Below, piece by piece: positions 16,511 through 57,574 of a stretch of DNA of 64,000 nt. How positions within the stretch are numbered: position 1 is the first letter of the stretch; each line of letters opens with the position of its first letter. The notes under the pieces were generated by a model. It was not told the origin of the DNA and ran no database searches. It was given only the letters and a program-made list of their open reading frames with translations. The position numbers were made by a program, and so were the translations under genes. Location: positions 82,646,001-82,710,000 of the forward strand of contig OX597820.1 of the NCBI GenBank assembly GCA_951406725.2, given 5' to 3'. The DNA is from Octopus vulgaris (Eukaryota).

Positions 16511-16834
16511 CTTTAACTTTAATGCAAGATGGAGCCAACCTGAACAAAATAATTTGTCAGGGGAATAATATAGCCGAATTTACGAAGCTAACAGTATACG
16601 CCGCAGCAAATTTTAACGATGAACCTGAACTTAAAATAGTTTGTAACCACACATCATGTGAAACAAGTAGTTGGTGGTCTGCCAGAGTACAGATAGACTT
16701 AATCATCAACGATACGATTGTACAAACTTCCCTGACCTTCTCATCTGATACATGTTCGGTTTCTAAACAATTCAGCTGCTTTTTGTCCTCCGATGACGAT
16801 GAATTAGTAGATTCGAAAACGTTTACTATCATAG
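16511..16834 (+). CDS. Internal exon encoding a divergent immunoglobulin V-like domain (first visible exon of the Ig-Ig-CBM14-CBM14 gene)
   Basis: Acceptor tttacttgtAG and donor G/GTAAGG; 324 nt, open, phase 1-1. Peptide ALTLMQDGANLNKIICQG...RVQIDL...TSLTFSSDTCSVSKQFSCFL...KTFTII has B- and F-strand Cys ~74 aa apart and beta-strand periodicity, but lacks the C-strand Trp. Confidence 0.8.
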
Positions 16835-18599
16835 GTAAGGTATTTTATATCTATCACATAATTCCTGTTTCCTATTACAACCCTTAGGTATTTTATTGGG
16901 AAGTTGCATGCAATTATTCCCATCTGTATTATTGATATTTACAACGAATTCGCCCATCATTAGAAATATATGATGCTAGGGCCACTTCTACCCCTCATCA
17001 TCAGCATTGTAATCATTGTCATCGTAGGTGTCAGAACTACTCATCAAGACGATTCTTCTTTCCATCATTGCCATCATCAACAATCCAACCAAGCAGACAG
17101 GAATATAATTTTCAACAATATCGACTGAAGAATTATCTGTACGCAAAATAAAATGTATGGATTCATACGAAACTTTGTGATATATTTTAAAACGTTTAAA
17201 CAGTAAACCCCTACATTGAAGATAGTCGTCATTCTTGTTTAACCTCAGATCAGCGTCGATCGGGAAGTCATAGGATTAATGGTATTCCAACCGTCAAAAT
17301 AATTTTTTTCCTTTCAGAAGCAGTGTATCTTGGAATCGTTGATCGAAAGCCATCTTTTAAGATGTTAGGATGTAATATAAAAGACATTTCAGTACTATTC
17401 CCGGCAGATCGAGTAATAGGCGTTTATCTCCTCGATATCTCGAAGTGGTTTTCTCGATGTTTCGCCCAAAGGATTCTTCGATGGAGCGTGAAGTTAGTTT
17501 GTCAACAATTAGAACTCTGAATGACAAATGAATTTCATTTTGCATCACTCGAAAAAAGAGGATCTTCTGCAACTCACACAACATCGCACACATACCTTCC
17601 ATGAAGATAATGTTACTTATAAACTGATGGCATTTTATTTTCCAAGTCTTTCACTCATCAAATCACATCCTATATTCCACACACATATATACTGTTTTCA
17701 AATTTTGGCACAAGACCAACAATTTCACGGGAGAAGATAAGTCGATTACATACAACAAACATCTTCCGCAGCATCGATATGATTTCATCTTTTTTCTTCT
17801 TCATAGGCTCTGTCACGCAACATTTCGGTACACTCTTGAACCAGCTGCATGAGAAATTATGTATTGTTACTCTCTAAAATTCTTAGATCTCGCGTAGATT
17901 CTCACTTCAGGAATGCGATATTTCCTGACCTTGTTGGTTTAAGCAGTATTATTATATTCGAGGCTTGATAGTTATGAGCTTAAAACAAATTAGCATTATA
18001 CTAATTGCATATTGCTACCATACCTGATCACAACAACGATATCTTGTAATCTTTTGATATCATCTGTATACTAGATCGCTTTTGAAATATTAGTAATGTT
18101 TGTATTTCTGTTTGAATGGCTGTTCTGAGACTCGTCTATACAAAGGTTGCAATTACTAAAAACAATAGTAGACATTAGAGATACCATGAATTATTTAATT
18201 TCTCTTAATACTTACCAATGGCTGAAATGATTGACAATTGTTTTTTAAATATATCTAAAACTAGTTTTCAATCATTCCAACGAGACTATGATCACTTAAC
18301 ATGTATTATATTATCCCACTATTCATTTCTAGAAACCATTGCTAAGTGTAATTGTATGATTCAATTATAGATTGAGCCACACTTTTGACTCCCAATCGTG
18401 AACTGAAATAGAATTATCTGAACAGAAACTGTTCTGAATGTCACTTACGAAAGTTTTAACATCTTCAAGTTCATCATTATCAGCTCATTTAAAATTGCTC
18501 ATATACACCTCCTACTCACGCACGCACATGCACATACACATATACATTAGTGACAAACTGGATGAATGAATTCTCATTGCCGAAGTGGTGGTCATATGC

Positions 18600-19200
18600 T
18601 CCATACTGCTAATGAATTAAATGTTTCACTGGCACAAGATGTCCAAGGGAGGTAGAGGGAAGGTGAGAGGTGATGAGAGGTGTGGGAGGGAGAAGGACAT
18701 CGGAACCTCAGAACTGCTTGAGAAACTTCACAATTTTTTGGATGCAGACTGTGGTGCTTTTAGAAAGACTATATGCATAGAGTCTGTAGTTGGTGTGTCG
18801 ACTGTGCACAAAATTATTAATGAACATCTGAAAAACAAAATTTGTGCAACGTTTGTTCCCAACGTGCACAGTGGCCTCTATCTTGGTAACCAACTAGTTT
18901 ACAGAGATATGTATCAAAATAGTCATTTACCTTCAGTCCAGACCTTGCTCCCTGTGATTTTGGTTGTTCTTCGAGCTGACAGAGAACTTAAGGGACAGTC
19001 GTTTTGAAGATGAAAAAAGTGGTGACAAGGTTTTCGAACACATTCACTTTACAGGAGCTCGATAGGGCCTTCACAAAGTGACTGGAATGCTAGAACAGGT
19101 GCACTGATGTCAGAAGATCCTACTTTAAAGGTGTCTAGATCTTTGTACTTTGAAATTAATGAATACATCTCTTGAAAATGTTTGAATACTTCAAGATATA
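18600..19200 (+). mobile_element. mariner transposase remnant (internally deleted)
   Basis: FHWHKMSKGGRGKVRGDERCGR (HTH region) and KICATFVP; CATTTACCTTCAGTCCAGACCTTGCTCCCTGTGATTTTGG is a frameshifted HPPYSPDLAPCDFW. Confidence 0.8.
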
Positions 19201-19659
19201 CCTTGTACATGTCTAATTTAGTGAATTTTCATATGAATTTCCACAAGAGAGGTGGTTTGTCAGAATGGTTAAGCTGTCAGATAAAATTCACTGCCGAGCG
19301 TTTTTGTGGCCCTTCGTATGTTGAATTTAAAACTCACTGGACTATTTTTATGTCTTACATTCTATGGGTTCCTTAAAGTGAATTAGTGAAGCCTCTTTTA
19401 TCCTCCGTGCTAATCTTGAAATTGCGTAGAATACTGCCGGTGACATAGAACAACCAAATACAAACATTTCCGGTAGTATTCAATAGTCTTAAGGCGCTAG
19501 CTTCCTCATGTTTTGTTGCTAATGCTGTGTAAATTATATTGAATAGCTTTCTCAGTTTCGATTTAGAAGTTTGAATGAGTCTGCAGTTTCATTAAGAGAT
19601 AAAAATTGTACTAAGATCCTTAAGCATTATAGAAGCTTCACGTTGAGATAAATATTGTA

Positions 19660-19700
<41 letters not shown>

Positions 19701-20034
19701 CTCACACAAAAGCATGCATGCACACACACTCACACAATTATATGAAACTTAAAAACAGCAGATAATATATAAATATTAAGTAAAAATGTTATATATGTAT
19801 GTTTTCCTTTTTGCTACGTTATCAATTATATGTACGTATTCTTTTACTAATTAACAATGACAAATATTCAACAGCTCATGACATAGTCACAAAAATACCT
19901 AATTGCAAATTGTTAGTAAATGTGTAATATATGCATTTGCGATGAGAATAAGAACTAATTTCTGTAAGATATATCAATGTACATAATAAACACAGAATAC
20001 TTTTATACATATATACACATACGCATACACAGGC

Positions 20035-20094
<60 letters not shown>

Positions 20095-20178
20095 ATATGT
20101 ATATTAAACAAAATGAGATAGCAAAGCTAAGGCTGTGAGGAGTTTTCAGGACATTTATTAGGAAAAAGATATTGATAT

Positions 20179-20227
20179 CGTCTTATAGCTGTTTCTGGGA
20201 TATTAGGGATATCCTTCATCAGAGACG
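20179..20227 (-). ncRNA. Type I hammerhead-like motif in a short PLE-type terminal fragment
   Basis: Minus strand: CGUCU CUGAUGA A GGAUAU cccua AUAUCC CA GAAA CAGCUA UA AGACG. Stem I (5 bp) and stem II (6 bp) are perfect, stem III is near-palindromic, and there are extra bases before GAAA. The fragment ends in (AT)n at ~20100. Confidence 0.6.
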
Positions 20228-20241
20228 ATGTATGATAAGAC

Positions 20242-20472
20242 GGCGAGCTGGCAGAAACATTAGCATGCCGGGCGAAATGCTTAGTGGTATCTTGTCTGCC
20301 GTTACGTTCTAAGTTCAAATCCCGCCGATGTCGACTTTGCCTTTCATCCTTTCGGGGTCGATAAATTAAGTACCAGTTACATACTGGAGTCGATGTAATC
20401 GACTTAATCTGTTTGTCTGGCCTTGTTTGTCCCCTCTCTGTTTAGCCCCTTGTGGGCAATAAAGAAATAAGA
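20242..20472 (+). mobile_element. tRNA-derived SINE, family B (GGCGAGCTGGCAGAA..GTTCAAATCC..)
   Basis: A/B-box-like head and core GTCGACTTTGCCTTTCATCCTTTCGGGGTCGATAAA, repeated elsewhere in the window (15830, 21350, 25295, 53748, 63210). Confidence 0.88.
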
Positions 20473-20624
20473 GACGATGTGAGATGGTTAAATAGAGGTA
20501 AATATTTGAGTTCGAAATAAAAAAAATTATGGAAAAGGAAGAGATGGGGAATGTAGAGGGAAATAAGAGAATGAAAATAAAAATAAAAATATAAAACATA
20601 CAAAGATATATTTTTTATCTTTAT

Positions 20625-20678
<54 letters not shown>

Positions 20679-22123
20679 GTGCACGCGCGTGTGTGTGTTT
20701 GGTAATGAGTACAAAAGAAGACAACACGTATGGAAATTATCTTTCCAGAGATGGTAGGTATTTGATATGTTTAGCGTCACGATTTCAATGTTTTCGGGAC
20801 TCATTCAACTGAAGTGAAGCCAAAAATATTCACAATCTCTTTCAGTCATATCTTAATATACAGAATAGCCTCTCCTGTAACATAATTTACCAATTATTGC
20901 CAGAGGAAACTTTATTTATCACATTATAGAACATAGGTTATTGAATTGAATATAATTACATATATTCAACCATGATATAAAAACCCTTCCGGGTTGTAGC
21001 ATTTGCAACTATTTAGTCCTATGTTGTGATAATACTCATAAAGTTAAAGATGAACCTTTTAGATACGTGATTATTCGAAAGGGTTTTTTTAAAAATATTT
21101 TTTCAAACGAGAGCCGTACAAGTTGTTAATATACGTCTTTCCTGCTCCAAGTCATTGTCTGTTTACAAAACCTATATAAATATTTTTATGATCGTACTCA
21201 GGTCTATTATGCGTTAAATCTTTCTCGGGAGTGGGGTTGTCTATATATTAGCATATCTGTCTAGTACTGGGATGTATTTAAGCGAACATTCTGTTCTCAA
21301 ATATTTGTCCTTGTGCTAATTTTAGAAATTAATGTTGCTGATTCATAACTATTTCTACCATAGGAACAAGACCGTAAATTTTATCGGGAAGGGAGCTAAT
21401 CGATTACACCAACCTTATTGCTCACCCGGTGCATATTTTATCGATGAAAGACAAAGTAACCTCGGCGGAATTTGAAACCTTTCGTATTTAGGCCATAGTT
21501 ATATTATATTGGAAAGGGTCGATCTATTAAATAAAACCCAATACTTATTTGGTATTCAATCAATACCTCAATACAAAATATAAGAATTACGTTGTAAAAG
21601 AACATAACTAAAAAAATTGCCTTTGGTTTTGCAATTCTGGCTCTTCACCCTGAAATGTTTGTAAAATATAGATTAATTACTTAGAGACATCCGCTGCATG
21701 AACAAACAATAGTTAAGTTAGTGTTAATGTATATAATGTAGTGAAGCTGGAAAAAATTAGAAATAATTATGCACTGAGGAAAAGATAACATGAAGTAAAT
21801 GACTTATAATTTTGGTTAGCATGCATGACAAATCTATATATGGGGAAGTCTTTTTAACCCTAAAAATCGAAATATAGGCTTTACAGCATATGCCAAAATA
21901 ATAACGAAATACTAACATAGTTAACAGCAAAACAGTCACAGTCTCTCTCCCAAGAAAGCTTGTTATCCTGACATTCCACACAATAAGTTCGACAATATAA
22001 ATATTTGTTCTATGATGTATTCGTTTTTAGTCAGTTTTCACCTCTACTCTACAACAAATGTGCTGTACTATGAGAAATCTTTATTGAAATATGTTTATTT
22101 TTTGTTATATATTAATGTTCCAG

Positions 22124-22444
22124 TTCCTCCGAAAACAGCCATATTAAAACATAAAAAAGGAATATCAGCAAACTGGCAGACAGATATCGAGTGTTTCATT
22201 ATTGGAGCCAAACCTTCAGCTGTTTGGATAGAAACACGACAGATTTTATTAGCCAATTTCAGCGAGTATAAAACTTCAGTGTATACAGATATTCAAAAAG
22301 ATGGATGCTTTTATAAAAGTCACTACCGATTTGCTGTCAAATTCCCTAATTCTTTCAACTTATCGACAATTCGCTGCGCTGTGAATATCACCTCAAACTA
22401 CAAAACCTTTTTTACTAACGAAAACGAACTGAAATTAATACCAG
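22124..22444 (+). CDS. Internal exon encoding an Ig C2/CD80-like domain
   Basis: Acceptor aatgttccAG and donor CCAG/GTACGT; 321 nt, open, phase 1-1. Peptide VPPKTAIL...DIECFIIGAKPSAVW...QKDGCFYKSHYRF...STIRCAVN...ELKLIP matches the C-x3-G-x-K-P..W and C-x-V pattern of C2-set domains. Confidence 0.85.
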
Positions 22445-22488
22445 GTACGTATAATTCTTAGAATATCTCTCTATTTTTCTATCCACAG

Positions 22489-22489
<1 letters not shown>

Positions 22490-22574
<85 letters not shown>

Positions 22575-22575
22575 A

Positions 22576-22608
<33 letters not shown>

Positions 22609-22640
22609 GTCTGTCTGTCTGTCTGTCAGTCTGTCTGTCA
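22490..22640. repeat. (TATC)n/(TGTC)n tetranucleotide microsatellite (similar at 35510, 44360)
   Basis: Directly visible. Confidence 0.97.
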
Positions 22641-23289
22641 CTTTGTCTGTCCGTCCGTTACTCTCGGTGCGTGAATACATGGGGGTACATTTTATTATGT
22701 TTGTAAGCACCGATGTTAGCTTGCCATTGCCAAATGTCGCAAGGGGATACAAATGTGACCCAGAATGTTGCTTGAACAAATGAGTTCCAGGTACACTTTG
22801 AACAAACAGGGATGAATCAAGAGATCAAAGACTGAACAAATTAGAACTTGAATTGAGTATCAGGTAGGGAAACATCAGCCTTTAATCTGTTTCTCACTTA
22901 CATTCACTGTCTTGCTCAGCTATCATAATTTCTGCTTCTTAACCCAGGAAAAATTGAATTGTACTAATTCTTATTCTTTATCTTGCCCTAATTCCTCCTC
23001 TTCCCGCTCTATTTCCCATCCTCAACTCTTCTTGTCAAGACATGTTTTAGTATACATTCAAAATTTCTGCTATGTATTTTATTCTTCTATCTATCTTCTT
23101 CTTCTTCTATCTATCTATCTATCTATCTATCTATATCTTCTTCTTCTTCTTCTTCTTCTTCTGTCTCCTCCTCCTCCTCCTCCTCCTCCTCCTCCTCCAC
23201 CACCTTCTCCTCCCCCCTCCTCCTCCTCCTTCTTCTTCTTCATCTCCTCCTTCTTCTTCTTCATCTCCTCCTTCTTTTTCTTTTTCTTC

Positions 23290-24330
23290 TTGGAGTGGGG
23301 ATTAGTTAGCCAGCTAGGACGGGCGATTAGGAAAGTGCCAGCGACAAGAATGGCCCTTGACCAAGTAGCGAAGAGAGCATTTTTAGATTCAAGGCTTGTG
23401 CGCTAAAAAGACTTACGAGAACCAAAGCTGCTCATTTGGTTGGGGTAGCGAAAACATAATCGTGTATCGGTCTTTAATTGATGGGGACGGCATGTGAAAT
23501 TCGATTTTAAGGGTATGTATGCAGCTTTGTATGAACAGTTTTCAACAGTTTGAGGTGAGCAATGTGCCGCCTCGACATGAAGTACTATGTAAGATCAGTG
23601 AGATACGAAAGGCTCTGAAAGGTTGCATGAGAGACGAAATGTCCCGTTTTGATGGTTACCCATTTGTTGGCTAGTCCTTTTTATGGTCACACGTGAAACA
23701 TATTTAGAGATCTCTTGATAGACGACTATTGCAGATACTAACAGAACGGGGTAATTCACATTTCTGAGCTGGGGCGCAGTCGAACTGTTGAAAGGGAACG
23801 TCCGAAAAGACGATTTTATCGGAAAGAAACTACTGTTATTGAAACAGCAGGATTCGTTCCATTTTAGGAGGTTGTGTAGTAGCTGTATCTGCTTGCAGAG
23901 ACGTTACCTCTTGGAACAATTTCTTTTCACAGGCTCAACCTGAAAGAGTGTTACCTCTCTTGTATGTGCTAGCACTCGTGACATTATTGTAAACGCTAAA
24001 GCTGTCGAGGAGCATAAAGGAATACGACGTAGATTCAGGAGTGAAGTTTAACTTAGTCATACAGGAGGGCGTACGGCTCAGAACGTGAAATTACAAGTTT
24101 ATGTCGTCTCGTCGAACAATATGGTACTGGACAAATGAACTGGTTAAATGACCCGTGATCTGGTTCAGGACAGGGAGTGGGATGAGGTTACAAGTAAGAT
24201 ATCACTTAGAAATGTGCTGTGAAAATGCAATGTCCAGAAGATCAGGGAGAGGTGGTAATCACATTATGGCCTTCTCCATAATTTACCACCCGACTGACGT
24301 GCTTTGCAGGTATTACAGTCAATGGAAGAG
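23290..24330 (+). mobile_element. Degenerate L1/Tx1-like LINE reverse-transcriptase remnant, preceded by a pyrimidine-rich compound microsatellite (23080-23290)
   Basis: Remnant motifs SRFDGYP (cf. SPG.DGLP) and LPLLYVLALVTLL (cf. LSPLLYVLALEPLL), plus a downstream IWF segment; many stops and frameshifts. Confidence 0.65.
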
Positions 24331-25294
24331 ACAGGAGGAGTGCAGTTTTAACATCAATAGATATCCTTTTCTAGACATGATATCTCTGCCGATATATACA
24401 AAATACATGCAATTTTTCTTGAAATGTGCCTCCATGAATCGAAACCAGATCCCAGTTGCAAGATATTGAAATAATAATGAAACATCATAATGTACATATG
24501 TTTTTGTGTTAAATGCAAAAGTGTTTTGAAATATTTAGTAAGATATTAATAAAATTATATTTCAGCGATATCCTCCAGAAACAGTTTGAAATGAATTTAA
24601 TACGGTATATCATGATTTTGATTTCGTCACAGGAAATTTAGTCATATCAAATTTGAAGAAGTCAGTCTGCAAACACTGCAACTTGTTAGAAACTCATTTC
24701 TTTTTGCTGCTGTTTGTATCCATTGATATAAATTTACTTTCATAGCAGCTGTTTAAAACAAGTTACCCTAAGTCAGACGTATGTCTGACGTAGTGTACCA
24801 AGTCGGTGAGATTTAAGACCTTGACTATCATTCAAGCAGCTAACTGAATATAATTATAACCGAATTATTATTTTAGAAAAGTTCACAAAATCGAATATTA
24901 GTTTAGACTTCCCGTTATAAAACACAATTTGGTTAAAATTTTATTATAATTTAGTTCTAATTCTTTGAAGAAGAATAAAATAAACGATACGTTAGAATTT
25001 TCTATTATGGCATGCTTGTTTTATTGCATTTATTAAAACTTAATGGAACTGTTTTTTGCTGTTACATATTCTCTCAATTTTCGCCTCAAGTTCTCATGCT
25101 TAATTTAACTTTTAACACTTGCTAATTCACATTGAAAAGTATCATCAATATCTAACAGATCAATTCAATTTACTAGTAATTCTTTTGAATTGACTGAATC
25201 GTTACAACTTATCATTTCTTCATTTCTACTTTTACCTCTAAATATAAGAAACTTCATGTTTTGGCAAATAGTCACTACTAATACTTGATAAGTA

Positions 25295-25505
25295 ATATTT
25301 CTTTCAAATTTTGGTACGAGGCCAGCAGTTTCAGAGTGGGTGAAGTCGATTACGCCGACCTCATACTCAACTGATACTTATTTTATCGGCCTCGAAAGAG
25401 TTAAAAACGAAGTTAACCTTGGCAGAATTTGAACTCAGAATGTAAAGACAGACGAAATGCCGGGAAGTATTTTACCTGGCATGCTAACTTTTCTACCAGC
25501 TCACC
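25295..25505 (-). mobile_element. SINE family B copy
   Basis: Reverse complement begins GGTGAGCTGGTAGAAAAGTTAGCATGCCAGG...GAGTTCAAATTC, matching 20242 and 53748. Confidence 0.85.
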
Positions 25506-27565
25506 ACTCATAAGTAATGTTAAATGCCAAACTTTTCACGGTCCTTGTGGCTCCAACGAACAAGGGCATAAACCTGTTTAGTAATAATCAGTGAATGAGA
25601 AAAACGTTTTCTGCTGGATAGCAGTTTAGTGTGTTACGGACATAGAAATGGTTTTTACTTAGCAACGGACGTCAATGAAATACCGCAAGTTATCAATGCT
25701 GTAAATGCTCAAAGTAGTTATTAATAAATTACAGCAACCAAAAATCTAACGGGATAAAAAAGGACAAGAGAAAGCGGTGAAGCCAAACCCAAGTACACAG
25801 CTGATGTTTATTTTATCGAGATTATATGAATGATAAGGGTATTCCTCCTCGGTGGGAATTTGACAATAGAACATATAGCAAAGCTGATGTAAAATATTTC
25901 TTCCGGTTTTTGTTTCTATCATACATTAACGTTTAAAGAATTTTATAGAATTGTAATAAACATGAATTTTATTACAAATATGTAAATGATATAGAAGCAA
26001 GGACATGGTCACGTGTTGGTCAAGTATTAACTTGGAATTGGTATCTTTTATACAGGCCATATATTCTGGCCTATAATATCCATTAAGAGCAATGAATATT
26101 ACGTATCGCATTGTAAATACTTCTAATCCTATGCACGTGTGTATGTTTGTCTTGTCTCTGAACCCAAATTTGATTGAGATAGAAAACAGATCAGAATCAA
26201 GTAAATTCGTTTGTCAAACATCCGTGATCTATTTGGAGAGAACAACAAAAATATTTTAGAGTAAGGTGACACATATTGATTGTTGTATGAAAAAGAAATA
26301 TTGATTTAATTAAAATAAGAATCGAAATAATAAACCACCCATTATCCCTATGTCACTGTCCGGGTTTCCGGCCTGTAACATCGTCCGGATCGATTTTGCA
26401 TTATTATTTCCAGCTCAGAGAAAAATAATGATTTCTTCCTTTGGAACATAGCCAGATATTTCTTGTCCGATAGTATATTCGACTGAATCAATTCCAGTGT
26501 ATACTGTTGCTTCTTTTTCGACTGCAAAGAGTCGAAAACCTATAGATGCCCGTAGTGGCATTTGAACTTAAGATCAAAAAGCATAGAATTAAAGTTGGGG
26601 ATATATTTAGTTCGATACTCTCCAGTTCTAACACATTCTTTTAAAACCGGTAAATAAAGTCGACGTGCTTTATGTCCGGACAACTCACAGTAGAGAAAGT
26701 ACTCGAATACCTATTTCTAGACTTCTTATTCGAATCTGTACAATTTTAGAAGTCCATTGTCATAGCATACCGGTTTGGCTTCATGAACACGTTAAATTAA
26801 AAATTAAAGATTCGCCTTACGGCACATGCAGTCAGTGTGTGGACATTTAATATTATCAAATGAAGTCGGATGTGTACATTACAATGTCTGTAATTCATGA
26901 GATTGGAGAATTTCTGTTTGAAGTCTTAGGATTAGTAAAGTATCTCAACGCAAAATCAGTTTGGTGGAGCCATTATATTCATATAGTAACCCCTATGATT
27001 TTAAAGATGGAACATTTCCTTCCAGTTTTGCTATGAGATAGAAGCAAACATTGAACACGATTTGTTATGCTATATTGTGTGTATTTATAGTTACGCTGAT
27101 AAATCCGTGGATACGATACTGCGCCAGTGGCGAGATACGACCTACCAACCTAATATTTGTAAGCCGATATATCTGCAGATTCGACAACAAGCAAGTCTTT
27201 ATTCTACTTAAAAGAGATGACGCGAAAATTGCGATTAATAATGTAATATATCACTTTGATCAGGGAAGCCATCTTCCCTGGAGACTATTGGAATATATGA
27301 AACTTCAACTATGACAAAGAATTCTGTGAAAGTATTAGGATAAATATATTGAAAATATTCTATATTACATAGGATGTATAAAGATCGATAAAGCAATTGA
27401 TGTTATACATATATGTATATAAATATCTAAAAGGATATGTGCTTGTATATATATACATAGCTACATAGCTATGTAGGTACTAACGTATGTATGAATCTAT
27501 ATATGTCACTTTTAATTTCCATTGTAAAAACAGAAATATTTATGACACAATATCTACAATTTCAG

Positions 27566-27784
27566 AAGATTACTGTGCTGATGGGCATATCTTCAAAGTC
27601 TACCCGTTTGATGCTTGTAGTGAATCGTTCGTGCATTGTGCAAATAACTACAGCTACATCGCAAATTGCCCAGACCATCATTGCATTGACGCAGATATCG
27701 GAATATGTGTGATGTGTGACTGCAATCAGAGCAAGTCAGTAACTGGAACATATGAGAAAAACAAATCAACTTTACGATATGAAG
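27566..27784 (+). CDS. Internal exon encoding a chitin-binding type-2 (CBM14/peritrophin-A-like) domain plus short linker
   Basis: Acceptor caatttcAG and donor GAAG/GTATGT; 219 nt, open, phase 1-1. Peptide EDYCADGHIFKVYPFDACSESFVHCANNYSYIANCPDHHCIDADIGICVMCDC shows the C.DG...C...F..C.........CP...........C CBM14 spacing. Confidence 0.82.
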
Positions 27785-28299
27785 GTATGTGAGCAAATCG
27801 CTGATTATTTTATTTGACATAAGAATACAAACATAAAACCAAGAACAGATAAATATACACAAGGGACTGCGTTAAAGCAATGAATTTGTGCTACTGTTAA
27901 AGAGATGAGACAAAAGCTTCACATTATAATATATACATATGTGTGTATATGCGCGTGTGTGTGTGTATACACATATATTACATAATATATATATATAATA
28001 CATTTTATTTATATATATATGACATATACACATATGAATGTGTATGCAAACACACCTATATACACACATACACACATTTACATTTATACGCTTGTGTGCG
28101 TGCGTGAGTGCTTATGTGTATAAATATTTGCGAAATACACCGAATATATATTTCCCTGCTAAGTCTAGGTAACGTGTTCAATAGACCTAACTGTAGTGGA
28201 ACGATATTATCAAATATAAATAATGTATGAAAATCAGCAATTGTTAGAGGACGAAGAAGGTACTCCAGCTTCAAACAATCTTTGATATCTACAATGTAC

Positions 28300-30390: not shown

Positions 30391-30421
<31 letters not shown>

Positions 30422-31339: not shown

Positions 31340-33070
31340 GTATATTTAACTTTATGAGCACACCAAAGTCCTCTTTCCATCTTGTTCTTGATTAATTTGC
31401 GTTTTGATGTAAGAATCGGGTAAATTTCGTCGATGCAAAGTTCACATATTTTGTTCCCTATGCTCTAAAATTTTGCTCTGCAAATCAATTCCCACGTAAG
31501 TGTATAGTCCGTATTTTTATCTTTAATCGACCAAATTCGCCTCTTTGTTCTATCCCTGAAGGTATTTTCATGATTAGCTATCCTTCTTTTTATATAATTT
31601 TCTGTAGAACCTATATAGTAGTAATACCGTCCCTCAGATACATCCTTACATCCTTTTTCCTCACAAAAAGAATTTAATGGATATCGTTTTCCTTCGGCGC
31701 AATCGCAAATTTTATTTTTAGTAGCGCTTCCTGTTTTCTTACTAATAATGTTATGCTTGCATTCCATGCTTTCAGAGTTATCCTCAGTATATTTATTTTC
31801 CATGTTTGGAGTCTTTCCCACTAATCTAAGATTATTTACGTTAGTTTGTTTATTACTTTCCTTACTATCTTCTTTGTCATTGTTTTCATTGCCCATCCTA
31901 ATACTTTTATTGGTTTTCTTTTATATTTGTTGTTGCCATTGTTATTATTATTATTTAAATTTATTATATCAGTATTTATATTTATGTTATTAATTTTGTT
32001 GTTAGTATTGTTGATGTTGAGTCTTCTTTTTATAGATTGTATGTTTATGTGTTTAGATCCTAGCGGAGTGTCCTTTAGAATTATTTCCCTACCTTCGTTT
32101 ATCGTACTATTCAAATTTTCGTTGATTTTCTCACCATTTTGGCCATTTAATAATTCTACTCCTATTGTTGTAAAAATCATTTAATCTTTTTGCATTTTGT
32201 GCAGCAATAATTTCTGCTACGTTTGTCGATATGCAAAAACCGGCCCATAATTTGTGTTAGTTTATTATATTTTTTCTCTGAAAACTGCTTATAGACACCT
32301 TTGTAGAATAGTTTCACTATATGAATTCTAATTTTTTTTGCGAAAGGTATTATGAACCATATTACATAATCTTTAGAATGATGTTTAAGGAGGTTCATTT
32401 TATTTATGCATAAGGTGTAATTTTTTTCAGAATTGTTATGTTTAGTTTTTCAATTCCTTCTGTTTCGTGGTTTATTGTCCTATTTTGGTTTATATTTATA
32501 TAGTAATAACTATTATAGTGTTTTATTTTCGACTTCATTTTAATCTTATTATCATTATCCGTTCCTTAATGTTTGCATCTTTGTTATACGTGTTTGATTC
32601 ATTTTCATTCTCCATCTGTTTCTTGATGTGTTTACTTATATTATTCTTATCGGATTTATATTCTGTTCTATCCATATTCTTTTTATTCTTGTATCTATTA
32701 ATTCCTATGTCAATAACTTTATTACGAATCTTGCTTTGTGTATTGTCCGTATTCTCTAATTTTACGCTTGGTCTATAGAATTTTAATTTTTGTTTATGTT
32801 CAGCTTTACTTAGTGTGATATTATAACAATCTATATTGTGTTTAAAAATTACCTCATCTGCAGAGAGACTAGATATTCTTTTAGATATATTTTCAACTAA
32901 TTTTCCTGTAATATTTCTTGTATGGTTACTATTTTTATTAATGTTCCTTATATTAATATTAGGTTTAGAGTAGGGTTTATATTTACCTGTTTCTAGATAA
33001 AGGTTAATGCCCAAGAAGTTAACTGAATTGTGTTCCTTTTCAATAGTGATATAATTCCTATATCGAAAAT
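31340..33070 (-). mobile_element. Penelope-like retroelement remnant (RT thumb, linker, GIY-YIG)
   Basis: Minus ORFs give VNFLGINLYLETGKYKPYSKPN..INKNSNH..ISKRISSLS and VIWFIIPFAK. They also give ICDCAEGKRYPLNSFC..YYIGSTENYIKRRIANHENTF..YTLTWELI and ICELCIDE. Confidence 0.88.
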
Positions 33071-34751
33071 TATGGAAATCTCCATAGCGACAACAGGAAT
33101 TTCAGATGTGTAAAGTTCTAATATTGAAGAGGAACCAACGATAAACACTAGTACATACATACATGAAAAATTTTCAGTATCGTTAATCGATGTTAGTACA
33201 AAACTGGTGTACGCTTGGATAATATATCCCTAAGAAAGAAAAAGTCTTTGTATACAGACTTATATATATATATACAAAGCTATACTTATATGCATATACA
33301 TATACGCATGAACAAACACACACACAACACACACATACACACATACCAGAACAGAATCTAAAGAAACCGGTGTTGGAAGGTGTTGACAAGACTTTATTTA
33401 AGTAACATGTACAAAAAGAGTATAGTGAACTTGCAGTAGGGAATGCAAAACCTAACGTTTAGGGCAGAGTCGCTCAGGGAAAAGTTGACCGAATAGAAAT
33501 TAAAAAGAGATAGTAGAGTTTTGCATCCTTTGTGTTTGTAAAACAGACTGTAACTGATGGGGAATGCAAGATGACATGAGAGAACATCAAGTTGTAGACG
33601 AAGGAAAATTTATAAGAAAGTTAGAAGGGAACAGAATGAGATGGAGAAGCGGCTGAAGGTGGGAGTAAAATAAAAGGAAGAACTGAGATGACAGGGAGTT
33701 GAAGTATAAGAATAGGATTAGTGAACTAAGAGTTAAAGTAAAGTAAAATCAGTTTACTTAGACCTGTTGGTGACTTGGTGCTAACTGAAAAAATCACAGT
33801 TATTAATCAGTTTCGATCGTTTCAATAATCGGTGGAATTGCTACATTCCTCAACTAGCTGGATGATATGTATACACTAAGATTGTGTAAGTCCATGCAAT
33901 TTCAAAAGTAAACCCCAGTCAGTGATATTGTGATGACCGTTAAGAATATATTGCCCTTGTACACAGGCTGATACCGTTATAAATACAGTTGGCGGTCAGA
34001 GCAATGAATCTCATAGCGAGACAATATTTAGGTTGCCATAACAACAGGGGAGCACAAATTAGGGAATCGGTGGTTTCTGATTTGTGTGGAAACTAAGTAA
34101 GCGTATATCTGTTCGTATTGCTGATTCTATTAATACAATCATCTTTATCATTATGTTAACCTACTGCCACACGTTAAGTGATTTTTCTAATTGTATCAAC
34201 CTTGTTGTTTACAATGTGTTTACTAAGTTCATTCTGAAGATAGTTTATTTAGTGTTTACTAGAAACGTCTCCTTTTTGTCTGTCATAATGACATTTATTT
34301 TGGACGTGTATATGTCTAAATCTACAGGAGATAACTTGACTAGGAAAGATATAAAGATATACACACGCACACATACGCATACGTACGCAGATATGCCTGT
34401 ATACCCTTGAGGGTATTGAGAAACGTTCAGTACTGGACATGTAGGTATAATATAGTAAATATGAAGGAAGTTTAGGGAGGAAAAAAAAATTGACAATTAA
34501 AATACTATAACCCCTGATGATTAGATGCGTTATTACTTTAGTCTATCCCTTCTGTGTGCATTATAATAGCATCAAACCCCGTGAAATAAGCGGTGTTTCA
34601 CCTTCACTATTAACCAATCAGCCGAAAAGCGCCATTTTAGTTGTTGTGTGGTATATTCAAAGTTTTAACTCAGGTGTGTGAGCAGTAATTACAGACGTGA
34701 ACCCCATAGTGCGATCTTCAAGAAAATGCAGTTTATATGGTCCAGTTTAGA

Positions 34752-44122: not shown

Positions 44123-44157
<35 letters not shown>

Positions 44158-44376: not shown

Positions 44377-44466
<90 letters not shown>

Positions 44467-45379: not shown

Positions 45380-45392
45380 ATACATACATACA

Positions 45393-45424
<32 letters not shown>

Positions 45425-45426
<2 letters not shown>

Positions 45427-46768
45427 AAGTGATAAATCTTTTACGTTTTGAGCCTACGCTCTTCAACAGAAAGGAATAAGGGAAAATAAACAGAGATTTA
45501 GCGATCAAGCATTGCGACTGGTTGGGAAAAATAGGTTTGACAGTAGGGGTAGAAAGAAGAGGATATATTAAAGCATTGGTGATCCCCAAACTAAGGTACG
45601 CGTACGTTTAGGTGTATGTGAGAATGTGTATGTGTGTGGATAGGGGATAGTGACTCTAACGTGTGGATGTATGCGTGTGTGTGTGCGTCTGTAATGTGTG
45701 GATGTATGGATGATGGTATGTGTGTATGCAGATGGTGGTGTGGGTGTGGGGATGATGGTGTGTTGGTATGGAGATGATGATGTATGGTGTAGATGTTGGG
45801 AGTTGTCAGTGGTAGTGTATGTGGGATGGTGTGGTGCGATGGTGTGTGATGTGGTGTGGGGGTGGTATGGTTTGGGGGTGTGGGGATGTGGGGGGAGAGT
45901 GTGGCATGGAGGTATGCGGGTAGTGGTGGAGTATGTGAAAGTGGGGTGTGTGGTTGTGTGGTGTGGATGGAGGGAGTATCAAGGATAAGAGAAGGTGGGT
46001 AGGAGTGAGGATAGGAAGTAGGTGTTGGAGGAAGAGAAGAGAGAAGAGATGGGTAGGAGCGAAGTGAGGAAGAGAAGAAGGTGAAGAGAAGAGGAGAATT
46101 GAGCTCATGTGGCGCGAAATTGCGAAGAGAGAAGACTAATTCCTGTTCACAATGAGGTTGGGAGTTCAGATGCAAAGACAATCCGAACACAGACAAGTGT
46201 TGTAGTGAATGACCAGTAGAGTGGAAATGGCGCGAGACCGAGGTGTCATTGTCGAACCGGTCAGCCAATCCGCATCCCGTTTGGCCAACATACAGAGAAA
46301 GGCAGAAAGAGCAGGAGATGCAGTAAATGACGTTGCTAGAAGTGCAGGTAAAGGAGTCGGTGATATGATAGGGACGATGATGGGTGCCCGTGAGGATGGT
46401 AGTTCTGGAGAGGTAGGGACAAGTGCGGCAGCGTGGGCGGGAGCAGAGGAATGAGCCAGGTTCCAAAGATGGGGGTTAGGGATGAAACTGTAGAGCAGGA
46501 GGTCACGCTGGTTATGGGCTCGTTTGAAGGAGGGAAGGGGTAGTGTAGAGAAGATTTTCGAGATGGAGGGGTGGTATTGGAGTCGCCGGAAGGCTCGGGA
46601 AAGGATGCGTTCTAGGGGCAGGGTGGAGGAGTAATATGTGAGGGGAAAGGGGAGACGAGTAACGGCTTGGCGGGTGCGGAGAGAGAGAGCAGATGTACAG
46701 TACACGGAACGTGCTCTGGTGAGAGCTGTGTGGATAGCAGTGAGGGGGATATCCACGAAAGTCTCATC

Positions 46769-46770
<2 letters not shown>
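45425..46770 (-). mobile_element. Penelope-like element 3' part (linker + GIY-YIG + low-complexity 3' UTR + decayed hammerhead)
   Basis: Minus ORFs RLPFPLTYYS..SFKRAHNQRDLL and CSRPRCRTCPYL..FTCTSSNVIYCISCSFCLSLYVGQTG..LADRF..HFHSTGH..EQELVFSL..PHELN. The 3' end 45438-45473 reads CUUU CUGUUGA A GAGC guag GCUC AAAA CGUA AAAG. Confidence 0.9.
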
Positions 46771-46818
<48 letters not shown>

Positions 46819-49619
46819 AGATATATATTAATGTGTCTCACATCTATGTGAGTGATTTGTCATGAAGTACCAAGATTTTCGTTTTCTTTTTACTTCAGAT
46901 CAATTAAGGAGTTGAAATTCTTAGCTTTCAGGTCAATTTTCAGATTATTTAAAACAGTATTTTTCCAAGTGCACAACCCAGCATCAGTGACAATGTATGC
47001 ACTCTGCATACTTTATACTATCAATATTTACATCAACATCACGAATTTTCAACACCGTTTTTAAGAGGTCGGCTTAATTTGGTCTATACAAAACATTCCC
47101 CGATACAAAATATTTACTCACACACCTATAGACATTACAACAGTTTGGAGTTGGCTTCGCGTCGAAACTAATTTCTTCAAGGAATTCTTCCTTTAATAGC
47201 TTTTACAGTTAACAATAATTCTGAAAATAGAAATGGAAAATATCTGTTAAGTAGTTTTTATTATAAATTCAGTTGTTTCCTCAGGGTATTTCTCTTGTTG
47301 CTGTATTATATTACTATATTTAGGTGGTTCCTGTTGAGCATGATTTGCTTCAGCTTATGTTGTTCTCATGTAAGATACCTTCCATTAAAAGTTTTTAAAC
47401 ATTTCTATTGCTATCATTTGATACACATTGATGGGCACTTACTTTATATGTCTACACATGACACACACACACGCTCTCTCTCTCTCTCTGTCTCACACGC
47501 ACCAAAGATTTTAACTAATTACAAAATATAATAGCATGAAATGTTTCTGAATAATTTCAAAATACAATTCATGATATAGTCATAGATTTCTTCTTTCCAG
47601 TTTCAGCTTTAATTGATATCTTCAGTGTCACTAAATATTTTACCTAATTTCAAAGTAAAATGGCATTAATTGTTTTCACATAATTCCATAATATATAGAT
47701 ATAAAAAAATTCACTCACAGATTTTTCTTATAGACAATTCTATGTGATGTTTCCATTACTACGGAATACCAATTATACCGAGAGTATTGAAATGGTGGGT
47801 AATTAAAAAATGCATTTAATTTCGCCCGATATTCATTAATAAATTACATTTTTTCATGTTTCCTCGTTATTGTTCTTTTGTTGAATCTCCATACTAGTAT
47901 AGGAAGAAAATTGTCAAATCCGGCAATACTGATTCCTCACAATTATCTACCGGGCATTTTCTCGTGTAAGAGTTTAATTTGTTGGCAGCTTACTTTCACA
48001 TTTCTATAGACTGTCAGACAAGTTAATCTTCGCATATCAAAATATATATTAAATTTTCGAAAAATTATCCTTTTATTTTAAGGGAATCTATTTATATGTA
48101 GAATTGAGAAAATTCTAATAAATGATATACAGTTTGGTCGGCTGCTTTTATTGTGTCTTACAGTCATAGATTTTATATACAGCTTGTATATGCATGCGTA
48201 TAATTTTTATAGAATTTACTCTTTCTCTTAATGATTGGATGTTTCTTTCTAACTTTTTTACCTATTGGCTGCAAAGTAACATAAGTAAGTTTTGGTGACG
48301 GCATAACTTCTTTTCCATATTCATTATTTGTCTCAAGAAGTTCCTGAGTATCTATTTGTTTCACACTTGGAAATCAATATTGATTAAATTCAAGGGGTAA
48401 TTTATACGCTATAATCTCTTTTTAAATGATCTGAGACCATTGTGCAAATTCGGTCTGCTAACTTATATGAGCTGTTGACTCGAAAATGCTTGGGTGGACT
48501 AAGTAAAAAGGATATGTTATTTTGAGTTAATATCTTTATTGTGCATGTATTCATACATACACGCACACATATAACACACACACTTACACGTTTCTAATTC
48601 ATTATTTCCTTTTATCTCGAATAGAGTGGCCAAGTGATTAGGGCGTTGGGCTTACGATCATATGCCCATGGGTCTGATTCTTGAACTGGGAAGAAAGATG
48701 TGCCTTGCGCGAGGCACTTCTTTTCCAGTTGCTTCAGTCACCTCAGCTAAAGGGGAGTTCTAACCTGATGTTGCCGCAACTTTCTCTCTATATAATTGTT
48801 ACATCTTTGATATTTCCATAACAGAATGATTGAAGGGCTGAGAGGAAATGAATTTCTGATGGCGAGTAGATAGGCATCTTACATGCATTAAGTGAAAACA
48901 TGTTACTCGTTACCAAGCCTTATTAGACATTTGTTTTCTATATCAATGTAAAGAAGATTGTAAATTTCCTTTCAAATAACTATTGAAACTATTTCCACGT
49001 TTGTGAGGATCCTTAATTTATGATATCCCAAAACTAATTTCGCATAAGTTGATGCAGCTTTTCTATTCATAGTTGTCGATAGCTATCTCACTGATCATAA
49101 AGTAGTCGTTCGCTAAAAGATACTGAAATATATCTATAGTAATTTCACACCAACACTGTTTATTAGTTCATAGTTCACCAGTAAACGAATCTAATCAGCA
49201 TTTGATTGTTTGGAGTTTGTAATTGTGTGTGATATTGACATATATGATTATAGGTATGGTAATATCACACACTATATATAGGTATTTTCGTTCTTAGTGT
49301 TTCGTAGATGTTTCAGGGTATCAAGATCATCTCTCATAATAGTATGTGCATGTTCCAAGAAATATTTTAATACAGTGTCTAGAAAATTACTTAAGTGTTG
49401 TGCCTCACATATCAGGCCTGCAATGGGCCTCAAATTTAGATAATTTGACGTGGTTATATTCGCGTAACTGCTCCATATATATTCTCATACTTCAGTAACT
49501 AATTTATGTACATTTTGTTAGTACATAGATTAATCCACACATTATCATACAAATTCTCAATATAAAACTAGTAAATTCTATTGTTTATATAAAATACATA
49601 AAAGTAAATTGATTCTTGA

Positions 49620-53940: not shown

Positions 53941-53963
53941 AAGAGATAAGACGCGCGCGCGCG

Positions 53964-54018
<55 letters not shown>

Positions 54019-54035
54019 ATGTGTGTATATATATG

Positions 54036-54075
<40 letters not shown>

Positions 54076-54079
54076 GATA

Positions 54080-54770: not shown

Positions 54771-54835
54771 TCTCTTTTGATACCAGTCTTGCGATCATAA
54801 GTGCAACACCCTAACCATTCAGCGAATTGGATATA

Positions 54836-54873
<38 letters not shown>

Positions 54874-54885
54874 TAACACAATATA

Positions 54886-54922
54886 TGTTTAACACAAGAA
54901 CACAAGGCATCACCTGGTCCAG

Positions 54923-54991
<69 letters not shown>

Positions 54992-55474: not shown

Positions 55475-55639
55475 CTACATTTCAAGATACTCCAGTTCGC
55501 TTAGCTGACAAAAATGAGTAATACTGTGACAGACTGGTGTCCTCTCCGGGGCGGGCGCAATATACTTGCCAGAAAATGCGGGAAACTGGCCTTATGAACC
55601 TATGGCTCGCAAAAGAACTTTATCCATTATACAAATGGA

Positions 55640-56050
55640 TGTATCAATGGACTGGAAACTAACTGGGACACCTCCTTGAAAACTTTAGTCGAACAAATCG
55701 ACTCCACTATTTATTTTTTAAAGCCTAGTACTAATTCTATTGGACTTTTTTCTAAGTTACGCAAATATAAAGAAACCAGCACCAGTTTCAAGCGGTTGTG
55801 GAGGAAGAGGACAAAGAAAAACACATACGCACAGGCGCACGCACACAGATACACACACACACACACTCACACACACACATGTATATGACAGGTTTCCATA
55901 CAATTTACGACCATCACATTCCCTAACAAAGCATTGGTAGACTCAGCACTATAGTGAAAGCCAGTTTCCAGAGGTGCCGTGTAGCGGGACTGAATCAGAA
56001 TCTACGTGGATGCAAAGCTGGCTTCTTAATTTAACAACTATGCCTGCGTC
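55640..56050 (-). mobile_element. SINE family A copy (diverged)
   Basis: Same order of motifs as 8893-9243 and 50675-51040 (TTTAGTCGAACAAATCGAC..CTAGTACT.ATTCTAT..GGGACTGAA). Confidence 0.75.
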
Positions 56051-57374
56051 TTGTGTATGCTGTCAACAGTAGCGAAGCACCTAATATGTTTGATTGAACA
56101 ATATTTCATTAACACTACGAAATCAAATTAATTTTGTTTTTAAATTATTTCTATATTTCAATGAAGTAAAATGTTAAGTCTGTTTAACCCTTTGGGTGTG
56201 CTAATTAATGTTGGAACATATCATTGAAGTTGTAACAAAATAATCGTTGAAAAATAAATTCAATTTGTAGGCGACTTGGTTGTGATAATTATATCTCACC
56301 TATTGATAATTTGTCACTCATCATACTTTCGGCAAATCACTTGTAAATGACGTCCGTAATTAAAAAAATTAATTATAGGACAGTTTATATGTGGTTGTAT
56401 ATTAGTGCTTTGTTTTATCGAATTTGAAAAGGTGAAAGACAAAAGCCATAACAGTTTGATTCTTTTACACAAGATTTAGGGAAAATTATTAAACTGTGGA
56501 GTATTTAGCAATATGTATTGTTTATTATCAAGTCACAACTGTAAGATAAAAAGTAAATGGATATTTGTGTTGTATGCATAAGAGAAATCTTCATTGCTGT
56601 TTGGATAGTATATTGTTGTAGTTGTAGTTCTGTCACATACCCCGAACTTCATGTTTGCTTTGTATGTAATAAGAAAATTCATCTGGTACAAAGTGTCCTT
56701 TATTAATGGGTTTACTTTAAATTGTCTGTTGCATAAGTCTGTTGTTTTAGTGGCTCCAGCATTTTGTGTTCTCCCCCGCATTTAGTTGTAAGTATCTTAA
56801 TTATCTGTTTGCAGTGAGGTAGGGGGATGGATGTTTTAAGAACGTTGACTAGTGGAAGAGAGTCGCCCCGCCATCATGTAGAGTAAATAGGCTGTTTTTA
56901 TATAATATATCTAAACACAAACGATGTAATAGTAACCCTAATCTTCTGATCTATATTCATTTAGTGGTGTTTCTGAAGAGGACAACACTAACTAATAATA
57001 AAAAAAAATTCCTCGTTCAATTACAAAATTCATGAAGTCTCCTGCACTGAGTTTCACTTCCAAGTGCTTTTGTATAATATAGTTTCTCTTTTAGAATATA
57101 AGTTCTTACTTCTTTATCTATTATTTCTGTAAACACTAGATTTTATCTACAAAAGCTCTACGCATTTTAAAAGAATTAGAACTTTAAAAATATCTGATGT
57201 TATAAATATCACTGTATCTCATGAACAATCGTGGTAATTGAAATTTGAAAATCCTGATAAGCGTAATACTTGAATCTACAAACTTTTATTTTTAAGTTTG
57301 ATGTTAAACTTCGATAATTTTTGCTTCTTCAATGAATCCAAATTATTTCATTTTCTGTTTTCTTTTATTTTCAG

Positions 57375-57574
57375 ATTGTTTCTTCGAATGCTCTTGTATT
57401 GCCGGAGGAACAGACTTTGATCATGCAGCTATTAGAGGAAATTGCACTCATTACGTATACTGCTACGGTGAAAGCGAACATGTGATAGCTTGTCCGAATG
57501 GATATTTTTATAACTACAAATCAGAACAAGGAACAATCCCATGTGAAAGAACAGCTGACAACTGTAGCCCTTAA
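57375..57574 (+). CDS. Terminal exon encoding a chitin-binding type-2 (CBM14) domain, ending in TAA
   Basis: Strong acceptor ttttctgttttcttttattttcAG, phase 1. Peptide DCFFECSCIAGGTDFDHAAIRGNCTHYVYCYGESEHVIACPNGYFYNYKSEQGTIPCERTADNCSP* has the NC..Y..C.........CP.G.FY CBM14 signature. Confidence 0.88.

What the first reader, a model, noticed from the sequence alone, without database searches (positions are those of the whole stretch)
16511..57574. Candidate VCBP-like gene: Ig(V)-Ig(C2)-chitin-binding-chitin-binding secreted protein in a probable cephalopod genome
Seen: four exons with canonical AG/GT ends, all phase 1, join in frame (..FTII|VPPK..KLIP|EDYC..LRYE|DCFF..CSP*) to ~354 aa. The product has many N-glycosylation sequons (NHT, NDT, NFS, NLS, NIT, NYS, NQS, NCT) and no hydrophobic transmembrane segment. 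Established: Ig plus C-terminal CBM14 is the architecture of amphioxus/Ciona VCBPs (V-V-CBD gut-mucus immune effectors), and molluscs have Ig-lectin fusions (FREP, CREP, GREP). Inference: this is a V-C2-CBD-CBD Ig-lectin fusion, probably assembled independently by phase-1 exon shuffling. It could act as a chitin-tethered pattern-recognition protein, or as a matrix protein of chitinous structures (beak, radula, gut or sucker cuticle). I do not recall this architecture being characterised in cephalopods, but cannot check.
Basis: partly seen in the sequence, partly recalled or inferred. Interest (0 to 1): 0.85.

Follow-up and report, generated by a model that had tools for sequence, protein, structure and literature searches.

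The report
Octopus membrane mucin with chitin-binding-like tip
The four exons are the tail end of a much longer octopus gene for a predicted membrane-anchored, mucin-like protein tipped by two likely antibody-fold domains and two worn chitin-binding-type domains, so it likely ties cell surfaces to chitin linings and is not a small secreted VCBP immune protein.

Summary
The four exons are real, with exact coordinates and phase 1; RNA contigs join exons 1-2-3. But they are exons 8-11 of an 11-exon, 155 kb Octopus gene, annotated as uncharacterised in O. sinensis (LOC118764280, 1,091-1,116 aa) and O. bimaculoides (LOC106874046). The full protein has a ~70-residue N-terminal tail, one hydrophobic segment, a SEA-like domain with a GSVV motif, a 525-residue Thr/Ser-rich stalk, two divergent Ig-like domains and two degenerate CBM14-like domains. 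It is a predicted type II membrane mucin, not a secreted VCBP. Ig calls have no Pfam or fold support; exon 2 resembles octopus C2-set exons, exon 1 stays unproven. Both CBM14-like domains score under Pfam's cut-off and lack the aromatic residue matching chitotriosidase Trp465, yet are the best-conserved part. Likeliest role (inferred): a releasable tether between epithelium and chitin lining. Single copy; no relatives found outside Octopus-like sequences; this architecture was not found in the papers searched. The assembly has an untested 2-base frame break in the stalk exon. Interest 0.4.

The parts
16511..16834 (+). Exon 8 of 11: beta-rich domain, likely divergent V-like Ig (5 Cys; Cys15-Cys89 spacing 74). 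Exons 1-7 (ATG and tail, hydrophobic segment, micro-exon, three SEA-like exons, 1,577-nt stalk exon) lie outside the window at G000:C7:82548710-82644511; the window starts at C7:82646001
   Evidence: AG/GT, phase 1-1; spliced contigs; no Pfam Ig hit; low-confidence model all beta, best Z 5.5 to Ig-like sandwiches, within background; upstream exons:
22124..22444 (+). Exon 9: likely C2-set Ig domain (VPP..C..G.KP.A.W..C pattern)
   Evidence: 11.1 bits against an HMM of 5 octopus C2-set_2 exons, 0 of 2000 shuffles as high; hhalign probability only 2.4%; ESM Atlas neighbours of the pair Ig/C2-set_2 at 0.88-0.90
27566..27784 (+). Exon 10: degenerate CBM14-like domain 1 (8 Cys) plus linker
   Evidence: Pfam CBM_14 14.9 bits, E 0.031; 14.8 bits against an HMM of 29 octopus CBM14s, 0 of 2000 shuffles as high; 73/73 identical between O. 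sinensis and O. bimaculoides
57375..57574 (+). Exon 11 (coding part): degenerate CBM14-like domain 2, ends in TAA
   Evidence: Pfam CBM_14 21.9 bits, E 2e-4, cut-off 22.1; 16.1 bits, 0 of 2000 shuffles as high; last exon of RefSeq models in two species
57575..58042 (+). Inferred 3' UTR; AATAAA at 57820 (a common word in this DNA)
   Evidence: runs hold words of 57375-57830; contig lengths
17318..17520 (+). Possible alternative terminal exon giving forms that stop after the first Ig-like domain (RefSeq isoforms P0006, P0008)
   Evidence: tblastn 17305-17445, 89%; phase-1 acceptor candidate; some contig cover in bin 17078-17466 in 3 of 4 runs

Best explanation
The four exons encode the outer tip of an 1,100-1,250-residue Octopus protein with one N-terminal hydrophobic segment, a GSVV-containing SEA-like domain and a long Thr/Ser-rich stalk; it is predicted to be a type II membrane mucin that likely tethers an epithelial surface to a chitin lining through its two CBM14-like domains and would let go by cleavage at the SEA domain. 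Shown: gene structure, splicing of exons 8-10, hydrophobic segment, stalk composition, GSVV motif, Cys patterns. Inferred: N-in topology (all 23 N-sequons lie after the segment), SEA self-cleavage (by analogy with MUC1), O-glycosylation and extension of the stalk, the Ig pair as rigid spacer or partner-binding unit, chitin binding, and the tissue (sucker cuticle, stomach lining, beak or radula are candidates).
For: Full-length orthologue models in two species and all upstream exons on the same strand of the same contig with AG/GT ends. X9 contig carries 886 nt and X5 434 nt of non-intron sequence before window exon 1; the X5 contig matches 4 extra bases GTAG, as use of the second of the tandem donors of the stalk exon predicts. 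One hydrophobic window, 0 sequons before it and 23 after. Stalk 20% Thr, 13% Ser, 5% Pro, no Cys over 525 aa. SEA E 4e-5 with GSVV; MUC1 self-cleaves at GSVVV and sheds (PMC6491460 passages). CBM14-like exons beat 2000 of 2000 shuffles each and differ at 1 of 139 sites between species against 13 of 107 in Ig1 and 60 of 518 in the stalk (Fisher p 1e-4, 9e-6), which fits an unchanging ligand. Octopus suckers carry a continuously renewed chitinous cuticle (PMC3869157 passage) and the stomach a chitinous covering (PMC7396502 passage). A Lottia shell-matrix protein combines SEA and peritrophin domains (PMC3374290 passage).
Against: Both CBM14-like domains are under Pfam's cut-off and lack the aromatic two residues after the fifth Cys that matches chitotriosidase Trp465, the residue with the strongest effect on chitin binding (PMC5459812 passages), while 22 of 29 canonical octopus CBM14s keep it. 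SEA is under its cut-off and is not detected in the O. bimaculoides models. No tissue, localisation or binding data. The stalk exon is out of frame in this assembly. RefSeq isoforms P0004 and P0007 start at the Met inside the hydrophobic segment, which could make it a cleavable leader. Strong conservation fits a protein partner equally well.
Confidence: 0.5

Rival explanations
1. Same membrane mucin, but the Cys-rich tip no longer binds chitin: it binds a protein partner, and the molecule works as a cell-surface adhesion or spacer mucin.
For: Trp465-equivalent aromatic absent in both domains, extra Cys in both, sub-threshold Pfam scores; ESM neighbours for the Ig pair include fasciclin-3-like and C2-set proteins at 0.88-0.90.
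Against: Domain 2 keeps the CPxG motif and an aromatic-rich YFYNY loop (alignment); 7 of 29 high-scoring octopus CBM14s also lack that aromatic; ESM neighbours for the tip are CBM_14 clusters, though only at 0.82-0.84.
Confidence: 0.25
2. A tethered or shed immune sensor: it works like a VCBP or MUC1-type decoy, with the Ig pair binding microbes and the CBM14-like pair binding chitin of mucus, fungi or parasites; SEA cleavage releases the complex.
For: Ig + C-terminal chitin-binding domain is the VCBP design (PMC4757023 and PMC5465252 passages); MUC1 acts as a releasable decoy; Ig1 is the least conserved folded domain (87.9%) and two runs from two studies differ from the window at three clustered bases in it, changing two residues and removing a sequon.
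Against: Single copy in the genome, unlike VCBP or FREP families; second Ig is C2-like; Ig1 diverges about as much as the unstructured stalk (88.4%); no expression or induction data.
Confidence: 0.2
3. One reading: a stand-alone secreted ~354-aa V-C2-CBD-CBD protein.
For: The four exons do join in frame; contigs of X1 and X13 end at or within 4 bases of 16511, so more than one upstream sequence may exist.
Against: Phase-1 acceptor, no in-frame ATG between the upstream stop and 16511; all O. sinensis and O. bimaculoides full-length models place it behind the stalk; the break at 16511 can be explained by the tandem donors.
Confidence: 0.05

Closest known systems
VCBPs of amphioxus and Ciona
   Same: Ig-type domains followed by a C-terminal CBM14-type domain.
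   Different: VCBPs are secreted, have two V domains and one CBD and form small gene families (PMC4757023, PMC5465252 passages). Here: predicted membrane anchor, SEA-like domain, 525-aa stalk, V-like plus C2-like pair, two degenerate CBDs, single copy. No sequence link to a VCBP appeared in any search.
Membrane mucins with SEA (MUC1 type)
   Same: Thr/Ser-rich stalk, SEA-like domain with GSVV next to the membrane segment, short cytoplasmic tail.
   Different: Reverse orientation (anchor at the N-terminus, type II), no long tandem-repeat array, folded Ig-like and CBM14-like domains at the distal tip.
Type II transmembrane serine proteases (enteropeptidase, matriptase, HAT/DESC)
   Same: N-terminal tail, signal anchor, membrane-proximal SEA, working domain at the C-terminus (layout recalled; papers seen as search listing only).
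   Different: No protease, CUB, LDLa or SRCR domain detected by Pfam; CBM14-like pair in their place.
Lottia gigantea shell-matrix protein Lotgi1|232880
   Same: Molluscan protein with SEA domains and a peritrophin chitin-binding domain (table row in PMC3374290).
   Different: Over 2,000 aa, several SEA domains, no Ig mentioned in the passage; sequence not compared here.
Insect chitin-binding mucins and peritrophins; vertebrate FIBCD1
   Same: Mucin plus peritrophin-A domains on chitin matrices (recalled); FIBCD1 is a type II chitin receptor (abstract starts).
   Different: Peritrophin mucins are secreted and lack SEA and Ig (recalled); FIBCD1 binds through a fibrinogen domain.
Molluscan FREP/CREP/GREP
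   Same: Ig domains fused to a C-terminal glycan-binding module in a mollusc.
   Different: Different lectin module; FREPs are highly diversified (PMC5877582 passage); secretion and CREP/GREP recalled.

Membership tests
VCBP | Secreted, leader directly before the Ig domains, no membrane anchor | tested here: not met
   No leader or ATG before window exon 1; anchor, SEA and stalk lie upstream
VCBP | Two V-type Ig domains | tested here: not met
   Second domain resembles C2-set exons (Cys spacing 61); first domain V-like by Cys spacing only, no Pfam hit
VCBP | One C-terminal chitin-binding domain | tested here: not met
   Two degenerate CBM14-like domains
VCBP | Multigene family | tested here: not met
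   One match each for exons 1, 2 and 4 in G000; only the best candidates are scored
VCBP | Gut expression, bacteria bound by V domains, chitin by CBD | not testable with these tools
   Runs are coded, no tissue given
Ig superfamily | Profile match or Ig fold for window exons 1 and 2 | tested here: inconclusive
   No Pfam hit; exon 2 beats 2000 of 2000 shuffles on a local C2 HMM but hhalign 2.4%; ESM 0.88-0.90; models pLDDT 48 and 35, best Z 5.5 and 4.3, no Foldseek hit at E<=0.001
CBM14 / peritrophin-A | Six-Cys spacing | tested here: met
   Domain 2 C-x15-C-x5-C-x9-C-x16-C-x6-C; domain 1 fits with two extra Cys; shuffle tests
CBM14 / peritrophin-A | Pfam PF01607 gathering score 22.1 | tested here: not met
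   21.9 and 14.9 bits
CBM14 / peritrophin-A | Aromatic at fifth Cys +2 (chitotriosidase Trp465) | tested here: not met
   Met in domain 1, Arg in domain 2; 22 of 29 octopus controls have F/W/Y
CBM14 / peritrophin-A | Binds chitin | not testable with these tools
   Needs a binding assay
SEA-type membrane mucin (MUC1 type) | Long Pro/Thr/Ser-rich, Cys-free region | tested here: met
   525 aa, T+S+P 38%, 0 Cys
SEA-type membrane mucin (MUC1 type) | Membrane-proximal SEA domain with GSVV | tested here: inconclusive
   Motif present in all 8 models that include the region; Pfam SEA 24 bits under cut-off 26.4, hit in 4 of 4 O. sinensis models and 0 of 4 O. bimaculoides models scanned
SEA-type membrane mucin (MUC1 type) | Type I topology, anchor near the C-terminus | tested here: not met
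   Only hydrophobic segment is near residues 73-96
SEA-type membrane mucin (MUC1 type) | O-glycosylation and self-cleavage | not testable with these tools
   Needs protein work
Type II transmembrane serine proteases | Tail, signal anchor, SEA | tested here: met
   (SEA under cut-off)
Type II transmembrane serine proteases | C-terminal trypsin-like protease domain | tested here: not met
   Protein ends after CBM14-like domain 2; no protease hit

The most novel reading that the evidence does not exclude
An inverted (type II) mucin peculiar to octopuses that anchors chitin cuticles to the epithelium and releases them at a self-cleaved SEA link, giving a molecular handle on how sucker or gut cuticle is shed and renewed; the shed part (stalk-Ig-Ig-CBD-CBD) would be an independently evolved VCBP look-alike, and a 4-base donor shift at the stalk exon would switch the binding tip on or off.
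Probability: 0.2. Interest if true: 0.7.

Novelty: new variant of a known kind. Interest (0 to 1): 0.4.

Why it matters
How molluscan epithelia hold and release their chitin linings is poorly described at the protein level (own knowledge). A single-copy candidate with anchor, cleavable link, long spacer and chitin-type tip is directly testable. It also corrects the gene: the O. vulgaris prediction CAI9725906.1 lacks the N-terminal exons, window exon 1 and exon 4. It should not be cited as a molluscan VCBP. All modules are known and the gene is already annotated (as uncharacterised), so interest is moderate until binding or tissue data exist.

Tried and rejected
Pfam found no Ig family in exons 1-2. 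Single-sequence AlphaFold gave poor models (pLDDT 48.4 for exon 1; 34.8 for the 353-aa tip); fold searches on them were within background (best Z 5.5 and 4.3; Foldseek no hit at E<=0.001), so the fold is neither shown nor excluded. HMMER of exon 1 over 1.84 billion representatives gave 7 hits: the O. sinensis orthologue and 6 repeat-driven artefacts. Word-based searches found only the three Octopus proteins and one unnamed 119-aa fragment, 88% identical; these searches miss distant relatives, so range beyond Octopus is open. PDB sequence search: best were weak phospholipase A2 matches to exon 4 (E>=0.49; Pfam E 0.39), rejected as Cys bias. SEA family search in G000 rang nowhere, uninformative since the domain is split over three exons. 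No run was on record as RNA; contigs that skip introns show that at least X1, X5 and X9 are RNA-derived. No read evidence was obtained for junction 27784^57375, for the stalk-exon junction or for the frame break. ORF 61198-61590 and nine other long ORFs gave no useful Pfam hit; no Rfam hit in the window. My regex flagged exon 3 as having the aromatic after CP, but the alignment shows Ile there. Earlier scan findings: none returned. Literature searches for the architecture or accessions: 0 papers, 1 irrelevant, listings without an obvious match; subscription papers and all supplements were not seen and may list the gene.
Full report
Observation. I laid 4 of the 24 listed runs on 16300-27950. 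In table 8 (cut by the tool) single contigs cover exon 1 and exon 2 in adjacent record positions in X1, X5 and X9, and exon 2 and exon 3 in X5 and X9; a 2,154-nt X9 contig holds all three in a row. The 2-3 base shift in the printed ends is the AG/CAG shared by exon end and intron end. The last junction was not seen directly. Contigs go on for 404 (X9), 668 (X1) and 668 nt (X5) after 27784 on letters not in the stretch; 668 nt from 57375 ends at 58042, inside the (ACT)n repeat, and these runs hold 91-100% of sampled words of 57375-57830. So the join is well supported but indirect.

The exons are the end of a longer gene. Exon 2 found three proteins: O. vulgaris CAI9725906.1 (631 aa, 100%), O. 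sinensis LOC118764280 (1,091 aa, 97%) and O. bimaculoides LOC106874046 (1,237 aa, 92%), all named hypothetical or uncharacterised. Searching the window's genome with the O. sinensis protein placed the rest upstream on the same strand (the window starts at G000:C7:82646001), and I fixed seven exons with canonical ends: C7:82548710-82548796 (ATG, tail), 82587113-82587317 (hydrophobic segment), a 21-nt micro-exon at 82591900-82591920, 82595292-82595401, 82603415-82603473 and 82632234-82632388 (SEA-like domain), and 82642935-82644511 (stalk). The coding span is about 155 kb. The X9 and X5 contigs carry 886 and 434 nt before exon 1 that are not the intron. The stalk exon ends in CCAA|GTAG|GT; the X5 contig matches four extra bases GTAG before 16511, as the second donor would give. 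That is one contig and an inference; such a form would shift frame and stop about 19 codons into exon 1 (frame 1).

Anatomy (O. sinensis numbering). Residues 1-70 tail; one hydrophobic segment near 73-96 (peak 2.64, the only stretch over 1.6); all 23 N-sequons lie after it, which points to N-in topology. Residues 107-180 match Pfam SEA at 24 bits, E 4e-5, under the cut-off of 26.4, in 4 of 4 O. sinensis models and 0 of 4 O. bimaculoides models scanned; GSVV stands at 163, the motif at which MUC1 cleaves itself (PMC6491460, passages). Residues 214-738 are 20% Thr, 13% Ser, 5% Pro, with no Cys. Then come the four window exons. Two RefSeq isoforms start at the Met inside the hydrophobic segment and could be secreted, still with SEA and stalk; two stop after the first Ig-like exon.

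Ig labels. Pfam gave none. Exon 2 has the pattern of the five C2-set_2 exons found in this genome: 11.1 bits on an HMM built from all five, above all 2000 shuffles (max 9.2), but hhalign gave only 2.4%. ESM Atlas neighbours of the pair are unnamed, partly molluscan clusters (0.91-0.92) and then Ig/C2-set clusters (0.88-0.90). Exon 1 did not match the C2 HMM (608 of 2000 shuffles as high); its Cys spacing of 74 suits a V-like domain (recalled range), and weak models are all-beta with best Z 5.5 to Ig-like sandwiches, which is background. Verdict: C2-like probable, V-like possible.

Chitin-binding labels. Exon 4 scores 21.9 and exon 3 14.9 bits on CBM_14 (cut-off 22.1). The genome has at least 130 stronger CBM14 matches, none at this locus. 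On an HMM from 29 of the 30 best loci (one dropped for a stop) both exons beat 2000 of 2000 shuffles. In human chitotriosidase the Trp two residues after Cys463 has the largest effect on binding (PMC5459812, passages); 22 of 29 octopus controls have an aromatic at the matching place, both window domains do not, and domain 1 also lacks the aromatic after CP. Yet the two exons differ at 1 of 139 residues between O. sinensis and O. bimaculoides, against 13 of 107 in Ig1 and 60 of 518 in the stalk (protein level, two species). The tip is constrained; chitin as its ligand is likely but open.

Mechanism. Best reading (0.5): a type II membrane mucin whose stalk lifts a CBM14-like pair above the glycocalyx to hold a chitin layer, with the SEA-like domain as the release point. 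Octopus has such layers: a continuously renewed sucker cuticle (PMC3869157, passage) and a chitin-covered stomach (PMC7396502, passage); a limpet shell protein joins SEA and peritrophin domains (PMC3374290, table passage). The architecture is near certain (about 0.9); topology, cleavage, glycosylation, ligand and tissue are inferred.

Comparison. VCBPs are secreted V-V-CBD proteins (PMC4757023 and PMC5465252, passages). This gene fails secretion, V-V, single CBD and multigene tests (one match each), so it is no member; after shedding it could work like one. It shares stalk and SEA with MUC1-type mucins but in reverse orientation, and the N-terminal layout with type II transmembrane proteases but has no protease.

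Caveat on this assembly. The stalk exon is 1,577 nt where the O. sinensis frame needs 1,575; the frame breaks near C7:82643023 and stops ten codons later. This explains why the O. vulgaris prediction starts at an internal Met. Assembly error or allele is untested.

Range and novelty. Searches found only Octopus proteins and an unnamed 88% fragment; five organism labels hold part of the exon-4 stretch. Distant orthologues could be missed. No paper in the library names the accessions or the SEA-mucin-Ig-CBM14 combination (listings); supplements and subscription papers were not seen. I rate it a new variant of a known kind, interest 0.4.

Noticed in passing
L012:7020-7030 (G000:C7 ~82643023): Two extra bases in the stalk exon relative to the O. 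sinensis frame; stop follows at about C7:82643054. Assembly error or allele unknown.
   Followed up: partly
L012:8511-8517 (C7:82644511-82644517): Tandem donors 4 bases apart at the end of the stalk exon; an O. bimaculoides model (P0010) ends in the same SPSR read-through, so the site looks conserved.
   Followed up: partly
window 16714-16718: Contigs of X1 and X9 (two studies) differ from the window at clustered bases (three in X1, two listed in X9), changing N-D-T-I in the first Ig-like domain; in X1 it reads N-D-A-T and the N-sequon is lost.
   Followed up: partly
G000:C7:82641523-82641685: Degenerate partial copy of the stalk exon 1.3 kb upstream of it.
   Followed up: no
P0003 vs P0002; P0005 vs P0002: Stalk length varies: about 153 extra residues in O. 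bimaculoides and a 25-residue duplication in one O. sinensis isoform.
   Followed up: no
window 32204-32257: Short terminal exon used only by the O. vulgaris prediction CAI9725906.1 in place of exon 4; probably a prediction artefact.
   Followed up: no
window 1641-1913, 31465-33101, 45591-46837 (minus), 18621-19007 (plus): Decayed ORFs that look like Penelope-type RT/GIY-YIG and mariner transposase remnants (labels recalled); no Pfam support.
   Followed up: partly
window ~17700, 20200-20480, 25300-25460: Copies of very abundant interspersed repeats (SINE-like, label recalled) with thousands of contigs laid.
   Followed up: no
G000 C6:121.7-122.0 Mb, C9:59.8-60.1 Mb, C5:90.2 Mb: Dense arrays of CBM14 exons elsewhere in the genome.
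   Followed up: no
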